Source of the DNA: Octopus vulgaris
Taxonomy: Eukaryota
Reading direction: 5' to 3'
Length of the DNA: 64,000 nt
Assembly: GCA_951406725.2 (NCBI GenBank)
Contig: OX597816.1
Location: forward strand, 91,202,001 to 91,266,000
Part shown: in pieces, positions 3,050 to 52,900 of the stretch
Layout of the letters: every line of letters begins with the position of its first letter
How positions within the stretch are numbered: the stretch's first letter is position 1
Position numbers and translations under genes: made by a program
The notes under the pieces: generated by a model
Database searches by the model: none
What the model was told of the DNA's origin: nothing
Seen by the model: only the letters and a program-made list of their open reading frames with translations

Positions 3050-4747
3050 TGTTAGTTTTGGAGATCAGAATCTTTATTCATCTAAGCTTACGCTATTGTA
3101 TTTTTATTGTTCAACGTCAGAAGCAACTTCTTTCTATTCCAATGTTCTGTTTCAGACAAAAAATGCCAGTACCCCAGTAATTACAGGTATAAACATTAAC
3201 TTGTAATCTGGATAGAATAACTGCAGATTTCTCAATAGTTCGGGTGTTCTCTTGTTCATTGATCTTCACCTTTATGTTAACATCCGATAGGCAGCTGATT
3301 TCCACAATTTCTCTTCTCTATCCTAAACCATTATATCAAGTATACTGTGTTTATATTTTATTGAGGTTTTCAAAGGGACATTCCTCCAATACTCCTTGTA
3401 TCACGAGTGATTATGCATTCTTGTGTTCTTAGTGGTTATCATTAGATTTCATTATAGAGTGTCCTAGCTACTACAACAGCATGTCTTATCAGTAGATAAT
3501 ACCATGATGACATTTTTGGACAACTGCTTATGCTATGGGCGATATCTTCGGTGTTAACTCCATAAATTCTGCATCGGTTGTCACATTTTACTGCTTTTCC
3601 TGCATCTCTGTCCCTTTTGTGCATCAGGTATTTGGTTGATATTTCCTGTTCTTGGGTTGCGAACGCATACCCTTCAAAGTGGGAGGTAATTATCCGGTTG
3701 TTGGTTCATGATAGACTGCTTTGATGATCAATGCTATTATCATCTCGGAGCTTTCTGCTAACATCCATGCATGGTCTTCTGCTCGTATACGCTCGTCCTT
3801 TCATCAGATGATATGTTGCGGTAGAGTCGTGCGACTTCTTTGGGCATGTACATGTATGGTCTTCTGCTCATATACGGTGATCGTTTCATCTGATGATATG
3901 TTGCGACTTTTTTGGGCATGTATTTAAGGTTATCAGACAAGGAATGCTGTTCAAGGAGCTGTCTTCCAAGTCTTATGAGGCTATCAACCTCATGTGTGCA
4001 AACTTAGTCAAAGGATGCACTTCGACACTTGGTGGTTAAAAGATGTTGCTGAAGGGATGTGGTACGATACTCAAAAGCGACTTGGATCAATGTTAAGCCC
4101 CTGCCACCTTGTTTTCCTTTTAAGTGGAGGCGGTCTACATCACTGCTGATGTGGAAATTCTTTGTACTTGTTAGTTTTTTTCCGGGCCTTTACATCAATG
4201 GCTCATATCTCATCAACCGTCCAATCAAGCAGCCCAGATGTTGATATGAGTCCTGGCACTGCAAACCCATTGTGAGTCACTGTTTTATTGTATGCAGAGA
4301 GTTCCGAGGTCCAAATTTTCTGTAATATTCTTTAGTGACATCTGTTTTGTTATAGGTGCCATTATAGGATATGTTTTCATCCCCCCTTAGATACATGTAA
4401 CATTCCTTACCAGATACAGGGGAAACAGTTAAGTCACCGAGGAAGATGTTGCTAGTCTGGTTTACAGTTTTCTCTCTTTTCAGAACCATATAGCAAAGTT
4501 TATCTTGACCAAATGCCAACCCTATATCTTTTGAGAATGTTGTAACCAGGTCAAGGCTATTTTCCATCTCATGCATATTCTTTGCGTATAGTATCAAGTC
4601 ATCCACAAAGAAACTGTGTAATTTAGGTATTTCTGTTTCCTTGTGAACCAGTGAGATACCTTTTAGACTTCATTAACATGAAGAATAAAGGATTTACAGA
4701 AAGTATAAACATCATAGAGAGGTTGTCCCCTAGGAATATGCCTCAGC
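3050..4747 (-). mobile_element. R4/Dong-like RLE-type non-LTR retrotransposon relic (RT C-terminus, zinc knuckle, RLE), frameshifted
   Basis: Minus-strand peptides DDLILYAKN...FSKDIGLAFGQDK and FEGYAFATQEQEISTKY...CRIYGVNTEDIAHSISSCPKM; truncated at (TATG)n near 4753. Confidence 0.85.
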
Positions 4748-12353: not shown

Positions 12354-13484
12354 CAGGGGTTGGACAAAATAATGGAAACACCTAGCATCATAATTTTGAA
12401 ATATCTATAAAACCCTCAAAAGCTTGTTTATTTTTTATGTTTTTTGACTTATTATTAGTGTTGCTTAATATGTTTTGTTAAAATTGCTGTTTCTTTTCAG
12501 ATATCATCAAAAAAAGATAATTAAAATTCAAAGTGGTCTAATTGTTAGTGCTCGTATGGCAGGCGCTAGCATAACAGCCGAAATGTTTGGTGTATCAAGA
12601 AGTACTGTCTCAAAAGTAATGACAGCCTTTGAGAAAGAAGGAAAAAAACCTCCTCGTCGAAACAAAACTTCGGACGAAAACCCAAAACTCTCAGATAGGG
12701 ACTGTCGGTGTCTGGCGCGAATTGTTAGAAAGGATCACAAAAGTACAGCTCCCCAAATTACTGAAGAGCTTAATGTCCACCTCGAGAACCCAGTTTCAAC
12801 AAAAACCGTTTGCCGGAAGCTGCACAAAGCCGGATTTCACGGGAGAGCAGCAATTAGAAAACTACTTCTTTCAAAAACAAAGGTTGCAAAGCGTTTAGAG
12901 TGGAGTAAAAACCTACAGAATTGGTTCTTAGAGCAGTGGAAGTATGTTATTTTCTCGGACGAGTCATCTTTTACCTTATTTCCGACCACCGTCCGAGTAT
13001 ATATGTGGAGACAGCCAAAAAGAAGCATTTTACCCAGTCTGCCTTCTTCCAGCTGTTAAGCATGGAGGAGGATCTGTGATGATCTGGGGGTGCTATATCT
13101 TGGAAATCCGCCGGCCCAATGATTTCCCTTCGTGGTTTAGGAACTGTTTCCGAAGGGAAACGTAATCTATAGTTGTTACTGAATGGCACGAGGAATATTC
13201 TAGTGAAGTTGAACATCTTATCTGGCCAATATCTCGATATTATTGAACATTTATGGTACATTTTAGAAAAAACAAGTAATGAGCCGATATCCTCCATCAT
13301 CATCACTTCAAGAACTGGAGATTGTTTTAGTTGAAGATTGGACAAAAATTCCTTTGGAAACAATTCAAACTTTGTACGAGTACACACCCCATAGAATTCA
13401 AGCTGTAATTTCTGCGGCTACCCCCATATAAAAATAAATTTGTTTGAAATTTTAAGGTGTTTCCATTATTTTGTCCAACCCCTG
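12354..13484 (+). mobile_element. Tc1/mariner DNA transposon, defective, with 30-bp perfect TIRs
   Basis: TIRs caggggttggacaaaataatggaaacacct at 12354-12383 and 13455-13484; TA on the left flank; HTH region, WKYVIFSDESSF and VKHGGGSVMIWG motifs; frameshifts and deletions. Confidence 0.95.
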
Positions 13485-24907: not shown

Positions 24908-25290
24908 CCCTTAATGTTGGTTTCTTTGTCCTGTTTTTATTCTTTATGTGTACTGTATTTTTTTGTATTTGTATTTTTATTTGTAATTGTATTTTATTTG
25001 TATTGCTTTTACGTCCTGTTCTTCTCACATTTTTTTCTTTCCTTGTTTTTACCCCTCTGCAAAGGAATTTTATTTAATTCCTCTGCAGGAAGGACTGGAT
25101 CGACGGGTCGTGTTCTGTCCTTACCTTCGAAACACGCATTGAGTCGATCCAGGGACAGCTAATGAAGGGGAATATTCCTTGTATTGTTTGTCTTGTACTC
25201 TGTTTTTTCGTTGTTAAAAAAAGTCCGTTTCCTAGTTGTTTTTGTTTTCGTGTCTCGTGTTCTACGTTTATTTGAGGCGTCCTGTACTCA
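24905..25290 (+). repeat. Unclassified T-rich element embedded in (TA)n, carrying a permuted hammerhead-like motif
   Basis: Bounded by (TA)n on both sides; structured core at 25057-25170; architecture shared with 49590-49960. Confidence 0.55.
25095..25170 (+). ncRNA. Candidate non-circularly permuted hammerhead ribozyme (G5A core variant)
   Basis: CGUG-UU-CUGUCC, then CCUUC-GAAA-CACG, then GGACAG-CUAAUGA-AGGGG; extra 10-bp helix CUGGAUCGAC/GUCGAUCCAG. Confidence 0.6.
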
Positions 25291-26449: not shown

Positions 26450-27517
26450 ACAGATTCGTCAATACTGTCTGTAAGACTCTTCAGCAAAGATATAGGCATG
26501 GAATTTGGCATAGATAAGTGAGCAATATTAGTCATGAGAAGGGGAGAGGTAATCAACAGCGAAGGCATCCAATTACCAGATGGCCAAACATTAAAATCAT
26601 TGGCAGGAGGAAAGAGTCATAAGTATTTAGGAGTATTAGAATCTGACAGAGCACTAACTAGAGAAATGGAAACGAAAATTGAGAAAGAATACACCAGAAG
26701 GGTGAGGAAGCTAATGAATGGTCTGAATCCAGTTAAGGCTCTAAATACTTCGGCAGTATCATTACTTAGATACTTATCAGCTTTTGTAGATTGGACAAAA
26801 ACTGAATTAGCAAAGCTAGACAGAAGGAATTCAATATGAATGGAGAACTCCACCCAAGGACAGGAGTAGGAAGATTATTCCTATCTAGAAAGGAAAGTGG
26901 AAGGGGGTTACTATCAGTGGAAGACTGCGTGGAGTTAGCTAGAGTAGATACGGACTCCTATATCGGTAATAGTGAAGAAAGTTTATTAAAAGCTGCTAGA
27001 GTCACAGTAAGACATAGGGAAACCAAAGCACCAAAACGAAGTTAAAAAACAGAAAAAGAACAGAAATTATCTGACTGACAGGAGAAGGTGTTGCATGGTA
27101 GATAGTTTCAGCAAATAGTAGTAGTGAGACATTGTTATGGCTGCAAAAAGGAAAGCTGCAAAGGGAGACAGAAAGTTTGTTAGTGGCTGCATAAGATTAA
27201 GCATTAAGGGCTAATCGGATAAAAGCCAAAAATAGACAAAAACCAAGTAGATTCCCAATGTATATTATGCAACTCAAAAGAGGAAAGCATTACTCATATA
27301 GTTACTCATATAGTGCTGGTACAGAAAGAATACAAGAAAAGACATGACAATTTAGGCAGAACAATCCACTGGGAGCTTTGTAGAAAGCTAGGATTTGAAC
27401 ATACTGATAAATGGTATGAACGTGAAGCTGGTAAAGTACTAGAAAGTAAGAAGTACAAGATGTTGTGGGACTTGAACATTCAGACTGAGAGAATAATAGA
27501 AGCTAGAAGGCCTGATT

Positions 27518-27553
<36 letters not shown>

Positions 27554-27916
27554 ATAAAGACAGTAGAAAGTATCAGATAATTACTTCACACTCCCAAATG
27601 ATGAAAAAATTAATATGAGAAATATAGAAAAATAACAAAGTACCAGGACCTAGCTATTGAATTACAGAGACAATGGAAAGTGCAGGTAAAATGTATCCCA
27701 GTAGCTATAGGTGCATTGGGAACTATCCCCGAAAATCTAAGCAGGCAGATAGAGGAAATGTGCACAAAACCCAATTTAGTACAGCTGCAGAAAACTGTTA
27801 TTAGGGACAGCTAGGATACATAGGAGGGTTCTTGGCATCTAAGACAACTTGTAGCCCGATGTTAGGATTCCTTTCTTTTCCAACAGTCTAATCGGCTGAG
27901 TGTATATGAATAATAA
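26450..27916 (+). mobile_element. R4/Dong-like RLE LINE, 3' half with 3' UTR and taa tail
   Basis: FSKDIGMEFGIDK, KYLGVLE, SGRGLLSVEDCV, YKKRHDNLGRTIHWELC, ARRPDL, KYQDLAIELQRQWK..IPVAIGALGTIP; ends gaataataa. Confidence 0.92.
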
Positions 27917-49510: not shown

Positions 49511-49589
49511 TATGTATAGAAATGTTGATATGTAGAGATATGAATGTATGAATGTATGAAAGCATGTGTAGGTTTTCACTTCCTACACG

Positions 49590-49960
49590 CCAGCTCAATT
49601 TGATTTGTTTTCAGTTGAAAGACGCCTGTTGTTATTTCTTGTTGATTGTATTCGTAATTGTGTAACATGTTCTCCGTTTTTTTGTTTGTTTGTTTATTTT
49701 TTGTCTTTGTTTCCGCACACATTCGCTAGCTTTCTTACAAAGGGGTCTAATGCTCTTAGCTTAGACTTTTTTGAGGGCAACCAGATCGAACCATCTCAAG
49801 TGTAACTGCCCGAAATGGTCGTGACTTCTGGGACTTGAGTGATGAAAGAACGCCAAGAATGGCCCGTCTTTTTTGCCTCTCCTTCTACTTGTTTCTCTTG
49901 TCCGCCTTTGTATCGTCTATCTGCCCGAACGTTTTAATGTCCTCTATTGTGTTTTTGTTC
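49590..49960 (+). repeat. Unclassified T-rich element with a structured core, ending at (TA)n
   Basis: Hairpin at 49745-49766 followed by a permuted hammerhead-like motif, as at 24905-25290. Confidence 0.5.
49781..49850 (+). ncRNA. Second candidate non-circularly permuted hammerhead (C3G variant, stem II unpaired)
   Basis: ACCA-UC-UCAAGU, then GAAA-UGGU, then ACUUGA-GUGAUGA; outer helix CCAGA/UCUGG. Confidence 0.5.
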
Positions 49961-52900
49961 CATATATATATGAAAAAATTCAGGAGGTATGAGATGAATA
50001 TATTTATTTCACTAGTTGATATCCATAAGATTACGATCATTTCGCAGTCAATGTCATAGATATTCTGTGATCTGAAGAGCAAGCCTACCTTACTTGTATT
50101 ATCTTATAAATTGTGAAATAGTACTATATAATTTATAACATATACACTAATAGAGACATGTAAAATGATTTATCATACACTGAGGGGAGTTATTTTTCTA
50201 CAATGATGGCTGCGAAACGATAGGTAATTTTATAGATATCAATTGGTGAAATATATATTTTCATCCCGTACTTCCTGAATTTCTTAATATTTTAATACTC
50301 CTAATGAAATAATCATTACTAATTAGATTTACTGGATTTTAACTGCATTGCACTATACATCACACATCTTTGTATTGGTTTACTATGTGGTTTGTAGTCT
50401 GGTTCACTAAATGTGCTTTTTTGTGAGTACCACCATTAAATCCATATATTGTGCATTATATATATATATATGTGCGTGTGTGTGTGTGAATGTGTGCGTA
50501 TGTGTATATATACGTATATATATGTATGTGTGTGTATGTATGTATATATGTAATGCATGATACATAATGTTGTACATTATTAATAAACGATAACTTAACG
50601 AGAATTGAACCACACATCTTTTGCTTACAAGGAAACCTTTATAATACTTACACTATAGGGAGCCTGGCGCTTTTCTTTTCTCAAACTGTTTATCGACTAT
50701 ACGGAACTGTCATCTCAACACGGGCGTCACGGGTATTTCATCTGGAATTTGTCAGCATCCTATATATATGCGCACGCGCACACACACTCGCCCGCGCGCA
50801 TTCACATACAGAAAACAATGTATGTGTTAGTTGCTCAGAAATTTCATCTGTATGTGTGCGCGTGCGAGCGTGTTTACATTTCAGCATAACGTTGCGTTGA
50901 TGTGGACATGAGAATACGGAAAGGGATAAAGATGTCAGAAGCCTACCTTCTCACATTTTTATCTCTGTATACTCTTCATGTCGGCACCAACACTCTGTGG
51001 AAATGTAAACATTTATTCGTTGTTCAATCCTAGGTTAACCAAAAATAATTTGAAATACACACACACACAAGCACACGCGCATACATACATACATACATAC
51101 ATAGGTGTGTGTGTGTGTTAGAATTCCTTATGTAAAATCAATGACTATGTAGATTTTAGAATTCCAGGCAAAGTAGAACATTTATTAAAGCGTCTTGGCG
51201 ATGGTTTCGCTGGTAGCGATAGGGTATCAGCTGCTGGCAATATGAGACCCTTAATTTCATTGAAAACTTAAAATTATAGCTATACATATCAAAAGAATGT
51301 CTGCACTGTTTAACTGTATTATTTAATTGTAACATTTGCTATTATGATATCTAATCTTAAAATACAATAAACGCTTAAATTGTCTTTACAAGAAAGCATT
51401 TTTGAAAGTTTCTCTGGGGTCATAAATTTTATAGAATATGATATTAGGCACGATATATTGTGGACATATTATGAGCCACTTTCTTCAATGTATCATAACA
51501 AATTACTGAAAATACGTCTCTCTTGAGAAATATAAAAACAATTATCAAAGTTCGCCTCGCTAATGAGCAAATATTTGCTAAACTTCGAGATTTTATATTG
51601 TTTTATTTTTGTTTATATGCAGAGTTTTTATGTATTTCTTTTTTATTTAGTAAATATAATTAGAGCAATGCTTTCCTTCAGAAGATTTGATGCTGTAAAA
51701 ATACTTTGTTGCTGAAAAATGTCTTTGAATTGAAGACGTTAGTCGCCATGATATCTCTATAGATTTAACCTCTATTTTGAATAGAAAGTTGCAAGAAGAA
51801 AGGAAAACACAAAATAGCTGGCAGTTGCCAAAACATTCTAAACAAGGCAAAATAAATATCATTTGGTGTTTGTGAATATTGAAAAGCTATGTGGTTAATT
51901 AACTACACATCTCTGACTAATTCTTAATTACTTTATCAGGTAAGATCTTTTTCCCATGCGTTCTAGAATTGTGTAGTTCTTGGAAAGAAATTTGTATTCA
52001 ATACGAGTGTTACTTGTTATTTTACTTGGATAACATATATCTCGTGTAACTTGTATTATTTACTCGAAATATGTCAGTATAAACCAAAGTCGCACTATTA
52101 GATTGCTGGTTATCTTCTGCATGGCATTTGAACACACCGTGTCAATAAACCTCATTTCTTACAGTAAGGACGGGGGATGGGGAGAAGGGATGAAAATACT
52201 TTTCCCAATGGTAACAGCTGCAACATGCAAATAAGACAGTCTCAACGGGGAATCGAAACTAGGAGTAATTATACATAATTACGAACTCTAAGATTTTCGT
52301 TGAAATATAGAAAGGGTCGAAAATTATAAGTAGCGGAAACAGTCCCAAGTACCAAACGGTTTTCGGACACACTTCTAGGAAGTATATCGCCAACGGCTAG
52401 AAGTCTAAAACCTTCCTTAGAATGTATCTATTAATAAAAAAGATGAGTACTTTTCTTTGAAACTTTATTTTTAATTTCTCAGATTTCCACACGATTTTCT
52501 CGGCAGATATTTTATGTAGCTTGGGTTTCCTAATTAAATTTTATTGACGTTTGAATATCACGTGATGCTATATTCAGCATGCCTGGCCATAGAATGACGG
52601 TTGTTGTTACTTTATATTCTTTTTATCTGACATCTGATGTGGTATTATAAAGGGTGTGGTGATTTGCATATTGGCATTAGTGGGAACAGTTTTAATGCAT
52701 TCTCCGTATGTTGCTCTTGTGTGTTGAGGATTGCTATATGTTTATTTAAAAGTTCATCAAGACAATTTCCCATTTAGATCAAGTGTCTCTTAAATACATA
52801 CCAGCACATAATGTAACTATGGAAACTGTTATGTTTTATTACCGACGTTCTCTTCCGGTGCCCCAAAGCAAACTGCACCAACAGACTGAAGGTGTTTGTA

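What the first reader, a model, noticed from the sequence alone, without database searches (positions are those of the whole stretch)
49745..49850. Second, sequence-dissimilar copy of the permuted hammerhead architecture
Seen: the same order as at 25095-25170 with different helix sequences: stem III ACCA/UGGU (versus CGUG/CACG), AUC site, stem I UCAAGU/ACUUGA (versus CUGUCC/GGACAG), outer helix CCAGA/UCUGG ending one base before stem I, core GUGAUGA, and again an upstream hairpin (49745-49766). Full compensatory change between two families argues against chance (inference). Caveats: C3 is G here, and stem II (AAGAAC versus UGCCC) does not pair.
Basis: partly seen in the sequence, partly recalled or inferred. 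Interest (0 to 1): 0.75.

Follow-up and report, generated by a model that had tools for sequence, protein, structure and literature searches.

The report
Four-way-junction hammerhead in animal retroelements
This stretch is a likely dead copy of a high-copy jumping repeat that carries a predicted self-cutting RNA (a hammerhead ribozyme) whose parts come in a scrambled order and whose catalytic strand is interrupted by an extra four-way junction; the same fold ends Naiad retrotransposons reported to lack a normal hammerhead, but cutting is untested.

Summary
Observation confirmed; both caveats are resolved. The locus is a 5'-truncated copy (about 49569-49971) of a non-coding, roughly 750-nt tandem repeat, F2. 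C3 is C in 73 of 78 copies, so the G here is a mutation and this copy is probably dead. Stem II is displaced, not missing. UGCCC before GAAA pairs with upstream GGGCA (49775-79). The strand after CUGAUGA pairs further upstream (49729-36), and the 'upstream hairpin' fills the gap, giving a four-way junction between A9 and G10.1. Nine families in this genome share it: stem II opens with G-C in 9 of 9, and a canonical stem II opens in 0 of 9. It breaks the intact-block rule of the published non-circular hammerheads (Eckert 2023). One family ends decayed Naiad-type RT genes and two end HERO-like genes. By eye, the fold also ends 7 of 48 published Naiad consensus ends. No ORF was linked to F2 itself. 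5' ends pile up at the predicted cut in F1 (13 of 40) but not in F2 (3 of 40). Cleavage is untested. The scan noted this fold before on other DNA.

The parts
49569..49971 (+). 5'-truncated copy of non-coding tandem repeat F2 (unit about 750 nt); 3' end at a TA run
   Evidence: 5' end 227 nt before the predicted cut
49729..49736 (+). strand a (GCUUUCUU); pairs with the strand right after CUGAUGA
   Evidence: (89.6% of cells paired)
49775..49779 (+). strand b (GGGCA) = displaced 5' strand of stem II; G49775 would be G10.1
   Evidence: 91.3% paired, 4 of 5 pairs with changes on both sides
49781..49785 (+). outer helix c, 5' strand
49788..49789 (+). GA of a predicted kink-turn between c and stem III (partner: CGU bulge 49820-22 plus GA 49823-24)
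   Evidence: pattern in 53 of 78 F2, 34 of 43 F7, 5 of 8 F8; inferred, k-turn consensus recalled
49790..49801 (+). block S: stem III 3' strand, AUC site (predicted cut 3' of 49795), stem I strand
49807..49819 (+). block G: stem II 3' strand UGCCC (C11.1 = 49811), GAAA 49812-15, stem III 5' strand
49827..49831 (+). outer helix c, 3' strand
49833..49845 (+). stem I strand plus core; GUGAUGA here (C3 mutated to G), CUGANGA in the family
   Evidence: (intact core in 60 of 78)
49846..49853 (+). strand a' (AAGAACGC here; A at 49851 in 58 of 78 copies)
25052..25170 (+). sister family F1 copy with the same a-H-b-c-S-G-c'-C-a' layout (core CUAAUGA, G5 mutated here)

Best explanation
The locus is a likely inactive (C3-to-G) copy of a non-coding tandem retroelement whose family carries a predicted hammerhead ribozyme wired a-H-b-c-S-G-c'-C-a', in which stem II pairs with an upstream strand and a four-way junction would sit between A9 and G10.1. 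Shown: the sequence order, the family-wide pairings, and zero unpaired nucleotides at a|H|b in the nine majority lines (the F2 closing pair is a mismatch). Inferred: stem II (b/b', opening with G10.1-C11.1) stacks on the G12-A9 core as usual, while a/a' and H stack on each other as a crossbar. Opened inside helix a, the fold is a circular permutation of type CSG with two inserted helices. Inferred use: read-through transcripts of tandem units are cut once per unit. Linear pieces give copies that start at the cut. Uncut or re-ligated (circular) RNA gives copies that run across the cut and into the previous unit. A Penelope-like (Naiad-type) RT is borrowed in trans and primes at (TA)n.
For: Covariation in 40 F2 + 6 F8 copies: 93.1% of cells paired, 13 of 39 pairs with changes on both sides (3 of 500 shuffles reach this), slid controls 33-52%. 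Nine families: helix b 36 of 36 pairs, III 34/36, I 35/36, H 35/36, a 33/36, against cross-family means of 2.1-2.5 of 4; first stem II pair G-C in 9 of 9. F9 and F10 turned up unselected in flanks. Shuffle null 0.023 hits per 2.29 Mb. RNA reads of a related organism carry C at 49839 in 277 of 283 reads; many carry C49792U and A49793G, and loose ends read CAGU after GAAA. F1 5' ends fall 0-21 nt after the predicted cut in 13 of 40 copies against 1.6 expected. In 17 of 30 F2 loci the unit start directly follows an upstream copy's 3' end; core spacing 743-790 nt. Inverted truncated pieces lie before F1 copies. F7 lies on the same strand downstream of a PLE-type RT C-terminus in 17 of 30 and 12 of 20 loci (one counted twice). 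Published Naiad ends show the fold by eye.
Against: No cleavage assay. F2 5' ends show no pile-up at the cut: 3 of 40 against 2.8 expected. The F1 window was chosen after seeing 30 ends (the next 10 gave 4 in the window), and RT stalling at the knot would look the same. No F1 or F2 ribozyme lies downstream of the sampled RT ends (0 of 50), so the F2-Naiad link is indirect. Eckert 2023 states that no known hammerhead has more than 1-2 nt between CUGAnGA and its stems, so tolerance of two helices there is unproven. Helix a is imperfect at the junction in F8 (2 of 4) and F7 (3 of 4). Strands a, H and b were located by a search that maximises pairing. Nested folding does not favour the fold in the window copy (z -0.69) and cannot model pseudoknots. 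Related copies share changes, so covariation counts are not independent events.
Confidence: 0.72

Rival explanations
1. It is an ordinary type-SGC hammerhead whose stem II has decayed; the upstream helices are incidental.
For: The block order S-G-C matches Eckert 2023. a' can make 3 of 4 pairs with b' in F1, F3 and F9.
Against: The canonical 10.1-11.1 pair forms in 0 of 9 families; F8 and F10 make 0 of 4 pairs. 0 of 120 S-G-C hits have a canonical stem II of 3 or more pairs. 36.5% paired in F2/F8. F10 is young (95-98% identical copies) and still lacks it.
Confidence: 0.05
2. The fold is real and hammerhead-derived but slow or silent in cis; the junction is a switch or protein-binding element, and any cutting needs a host or element protein or a dimer.
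For: 30 of 40 F2 copies extend across the predicted cut, with no pile-up. Published SGC ribozymes are slow. An AUC site was least efficient co-transcriptionally in one viroid hammerhead.
Against: All catalytic nucleotides and the G10.1-C11.1 pair are kept across 9 families. F1 ends pile up at the site.
Confidence: 0.18
3. The junction stacks the other way: a/a' serves as stem II on the core and b/b' stacks on H.
For: A9 runs straight into a', keeping block C covalently intact; a perfect four-way junction allows either stacking.
Against: The first a pair varies (A-U, U-A, C-G, and U-U in F8), whereas the first b pair is G-C in 9 of 9, like the conserved G10.1-C11.1 (that conservation is recalled).
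Confidence: 0.12

Closest known systems
Type-SGC (HRIMA-1) and type-CSG hammerheads, Eckert et al. 2023, PMC10085705 (seen: outline, sections 13-15, part 1 of 2 of section 18, 12 passages; supplements not opened)
   Same: Non-circular block order, pseudoknotted core, full CUGANGA / GAAA / NUH, and a short linker from stem I to the stem II 3' strand.
   Different: Block C is split: stem II comes from upstream through a four-way junction, against the paper's assumption that blocks cannot be interrupted. [quoted passage not shown]
Naiad Penelope-like elements, Craig et al. 2021, PMC8557442 (seen: 12 of 25 passages; supplement metadata rows and 48 record ends)
   Same: (TA)n targeting, partial tandems, inverted truncated copies. 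F7 matches the 3' ends of Naiad_Obim and Naiad_Ovul by eye, and the paper flags 'HHR_half_core' in Naiad_Ovul.
   Different: The paper says Naiads lack canonical hammerheads. F2 has no ORF and no direct link to a Naiad gene.
Non-LTR retrozymes / PLE type I hammerheads (bioRxiv 10.64898/2026.07.22.740005, 8 passages; PMC7229834 and PMC4209133, search listing only)
   Same: Non-coding head-to-tail units with one hammerhead per unit, derived from or mobilised by PLEs.
   Different: Those carry type I (minimal) hammerheads; this one is a split, non-circular form in a unit of about 750 nt.

Membership tests
Hammerhead ribozyme | Core CUGANGA, GAAA and NUH site | tested here: met
   Family level: intact core in 60 of 78 F2 copies, all 9 majority lines. 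Not met in this copy (C3 is G).
Hammerhead ribozyme | Stems I and III flanking the site, with A15.1-U16.1 | tested here: met
   97.1% and 95.2% of cells paired, 3 pairs each with changes on both sides
Hammerhead ribozyme | Stem II closing on GAAA with G10.1-C11.1 | tested here: met
   Through upstream strand b: G-C in 9 of 9 families
Hammerhead ribozyme | Site-specific self-cleavage | not testable with these tools
   Indirect only: F1 5'-end pile-up, absent in F2
Type-SGC hammerhead (Eckert 2023) | Order S, G, C | tested here: met
Type-SGC hammerhead (Eckert 2023) | Intact block C: stem II 5' strand directly after CUGAnGA | tested here: not met
   0 of 9 families, 0 of 120 hits, 36.5% paired
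Naiad PLE | ORF with N-terminal GIY-YIG, CxC linker, C-terminal RT | tested here: not met
   The F2 unit is non-coding and tandem; F2 lies behind 0 of 50 RT ends. For F7 the RT pieces end without a C-terminal nuclease; its N-terminal GIY-YIG was not recovered.
Naiad PLE | (TA)n-associated ends, partial tandems, inverted truncated copies | tested here: met
Non-LTR retrozyme | Non-coding tandem unit with a hammerhead in each unit | tested here: met
   Core-to-core spacing 743-790 nt in 3 of 30 loci; 17 of 30 with an abutting upstream copy
Non-LTR retrozyme | Type I hammerhead | tested here: not met
   Order is S-G-C with a split block C
Non-LTR retrozyme | Circular RNA intermediates | not testable with these tools
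   Genomic tandems give the same junction reads; no suitable library

The most novel reading that the evidence does not exclude
A four-block hammerhead with a perfect four-way junction inside its catalytic strand is an active ribozyme. It is shared by Naiad Penelope-like elements from cnidarians to cephalopods, by HERO-like non-LTR 3' UTRs and by non-coding tandem parasites such as F2. It is the missing Naiad hammerhead, arose by reopening a type-CSG ancestor (the unsplit form seen in nematode Naiads), and yields unit-length, probably circular, templates for retrotransposition.
Probability: 0.5. Interest if true: 0.88.

Novelty: new variant of a known kind. Interest (0 to 1): 0.74.

Why it matters
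If it cuts, it adds a hammerhead topology outside the six permutations that Eckert 2023 considered possible and shows that the core tolerates a four-way junction between A9 and G10.1, a new place for engineered switches. It would move non-circular hammerheads from environmental RNA into animal genomes at thousands of copies. It would explain why descriptor searches reported Naiads as lacking hammerheads, and it would put a self-cleaving ribozyme at the 3' end of non-LTR elements. A 130-nt transcript tests it directly.

Tried and rejected
Rfam scan of the window: only microsatellite-driven miRNA/snoRNA matches among the 150 of 177 shown. RVT_1 search of the genome: 150 generic RT hits, not followed up. 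Canonical SGC stem II: rejected. First pattern search: 212 matches against 108 in the reversed control, 100 listed; it was biased to mutated copies, so the F3-F5 majorities rest on 6-8 such copies. Direct ORF link for F2: none. Run search: no RNA holder listed. Laid RNA reads gave no start or end pile-up and lie in both directions, so they are no test of cleavage; F1 was essentially absent from those runs, so no test. Nested MFE folding was uninformative, z from +0.57 to -4.09 over 5 sequences. Pfam and PDB did not name the ORFs: one Pfam match among 5 proteins, below its cut-off, and R2 hits at E 0.16-0.19, so the 'HERO-like' and RT-motif labels are recalled. Metagenome pattern scan: 3 of 80 fetched loci had CUGANGA downstream; 2 look like F9 but their contigs end before strands a and b. 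The first F2 end analysis failed on a bad anchor and was redone. No paper describing the split fold or a Naiad hammerhead turned up in searches (open-licence PMC and bioRxiv only). Eckert's supplements were not opened and could hold similar variants.

Full report
Observation. The 5'-to-3' order is site block, GAAA block, CUGANGA block (S-G-C), which Eckert et al. 2023 (PMC10085705) described and validated from metatranscriptomes. Rfam shows no hammerhead among the 150 of 177 matches listed.

The locus is a repeat copy. In the 2.8-Gb genome G000 the stretch has 2258 first-look candidates; the 39 other copies scored are 89-93% identical. The sister locus at 25.1 kb (F1) has 3250 candidates. These are not copy numbers. 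Among 78 distinct F2 stretches extracted from fetched loci, position 49839 is C in 73 and the core is intact in 60. RNA reads of a related organism carry C there in 277 of 283 reads. The G is therefore a mutation, and since C3 pairs with G8 in the active core (recalled) this copy is probably dead. F2 is a non-coding unit of about 750 nt that ends in a TA run. In 17 of 30 loci picked by the unit's 5' part, an upstream copy's 3' end abuts the unit start, and core-to-core spacings are 743, 753 and 790 nt. F1 shows the same partial tandems and inverted truncated pieces, the layout Craig et al. 2021 give for Penelope-like elements (PMC8557442).

Stem II. The strand after the core does not pair with the strand before GAAA, in this copy or in the family: 36.5% of cells, and the base pair in 3 of 46. 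Instead UGCCC (49807-11) pairs with GGGCA at 49775-79 (strand b), and the strand after the core (49846-53) pairs with GCUUUCUU at 49729-36 (strand a). Hairpin H lies exactly between a and b. On an alignment of 40 of the 78 F2 and 6 of the 8 F8 copies, this six-helix structure has 93.1% of cells paired and 13 of 39 pairs with changes on both sides (3 of 500 shuffles reach this; slid controls 33-52%). Helix b has such changes at 4 of 5 pairs, helix a at 1 of 8, with F8 rows one column off there. These counts include changes inherited by related copies.

Nine families. A pattern search and a descriptor run over all fetched loci gave families F1-F5 and F7-F10, with 6 to 78 copies each; F9 and F10 turned up unselected in flanking DNA. 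In all nine majority lines a, H and b follow each other with no unpaired base (the F2 closing pair is a mismatch). The four pairs nearest the core form 36 of 36 times in b, 34 in III, 35 in I, 35 in H and 33 in a, against 2.1-2.5 of 4 when strands are swapped between families. The first stem II pair is G-C in 9 of 9 through b and forms in 0 of 9 canonically. Exceptions: a makes 2 of 4 pairs in F8 and 3 of 4 in F7. The strands were found by a search that maximises pairing, so the control is the shuffle: 63 hits in 2.29 Mb of loci (selected, some fetched twice) against 3 in 128 shuffles, and 0 of 120 real S-G-C hits with a canonical stem II of 3 or more pairs. A kink-turn-like motif between c and stem III, a lead from earlier notes that I then counted, is present in 53 of 78 F2, 34 of 43 F7 and 5 of 8 F8 copies, in the reverse orientation in 5 of 8 F3, and nearly absent from F1, F9 and F10.

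Fold (inferred). The connections A9 to a', a to H, H to b and b' to G12 make a four-way junction. The invariant G-C at the base of b argues that b stacks on the core as stem II while a and H stack on each other. Closing helix a with a loop and opening behind stem III gives the order C-S-G, so the fold is a circular permutation of type CSG with two helices inserted between A9 and G10.1. Eckert et al. assumed that no more than 1-2 nt can lie there. One extra nucleotide in a viroid core is known (title seen in a reference list; its position after A9 is recalled). Passages of Perreault 2011 show only short core insertions.

Carriers. F7 lies 440-1930 nt downstream, on the same strand, of a PLE-type RT C-terminus in 17 of 30 close and 12 of 20 divergent hits (one locus counted twice; matches of 54 nt or more; the query came from an F7 locus). 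The decayed RT pieces end without a C-terminal nuclease. No F1 or F2 ribozyme lies behind any of these 50. F9 and F10 follow ORFs with a zinc finger and a restriction-like nuclease motif in 5 of 25 loci each (four of the F10 ones in one duplicated cluster); the HERO label is recalled and was not confirmed by Pfam or PDB. Craig et al. report that Naiads insert in (TA)n and lack canonical hammerheads, and flag some as 'HHR_half_core'. Reading 48 record ends of their supplement by eye, not by computation, I see the full split fold in 7 (Naiad-3_Chem, Amil, Aacu, Anas, Naiad-2_Movir, Obim, Ovul), the visible part of it in 2 (Plae, EuTe), a degenerate form in 1 (Esco), and an unsplit type CSG in 4 nematode ends. 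The other 34 show another motif or nothing I could parse. The close match of F7 to the Obim and Ovul ends suggests an octopus-like host (inference).

Signs of cutting. In copies picked by sequence downstream of the core, 13 of 40 F1 5' ends fall 0-21 nt after the predicted cut, against 1.6 expected from the rate elsewhere (Poisson P about 1e-8; the window was set after the first 30, and the next 10 gave 4). F2 shows no such excess, 3 of 40 against 2.8, although 5 of 20 upstream partial F2 copies start 2-18 nt after the site and one copy, L154, is deleted from the site onward. RT stalling at the knot would mimic this. Laid RNA reads showed no defined ends.

Mechanism. Most likely, tandem read-through RNA is cut once per unit. 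A borrowed Naiad-type RT primes at a (TA)n target about 170 nt downstream of the cut, so cut linear RNA gives short copies that start at the site, and uncut or re-ligated RNA gives copies that cross it and continue into the previous unit (30 of 40 F2 copies cross it). The pairing and layout are shown; catalysis, stacking, circles and the identity of the RT are inferred.

Novelty. It works like a hammerhead and has the SGC block order, but it fails the intact-block feature of type SGC, so I file it as a new variant. Eight searches of the held library found no description of it; passages of two 2026 preprints do not describe it. Earlier notes of this scan reach the same reading on other DNA. I read them after forming mine; they are not independent support.

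Noticed in passing
   Followed up: no
PMC8557442 supplement, four nematode Naiad ends: Unsplit type-CSG hammerheads by eye, with an extra helix enclosing block C; type CSG was known from two sequences only.
   Followed up: partly
L329-L353 (F9) and L354-L378 (F10): The same split fold sits in the 3' UTR of two HERO-like non-LTR families; F10 copies are 95-98% identical and mostly intact, the best assay candidates.
   Followed up: partly
L154 (G000:C8:95988283-95991588): F2 copy whose sequence stops at the predicted cut and resumes about 135 nt downstream; its upstream partial copy stops at the same place.
   Followed up: partly
L020 and L025 flanks; window 45324: Canonical minimal type I PLE hammerheads lie beside F2 copies; a CUGAUGA...GAAA type I-like core lies at window 45324.
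   Followed up: no
L107 about 1900-2100: Palindromic junction of a hammerhead-like core next to a PLE GIY-YIG remnant on the other strand.
   Followed up: no
L395, L413 (metagenome contigs): F9-like S-G-C cores in other organisms; the contigs end before strands a and b.
   Followed up: partly
window 26522-27615, 4280-4669 (-), 12469-13056: Decayed ORF pieces resembling non-LTR retrotransposons and a Tc1/mariner-like transposase (labels recalled); no host exon was identified near the finding.
   Followed up: no
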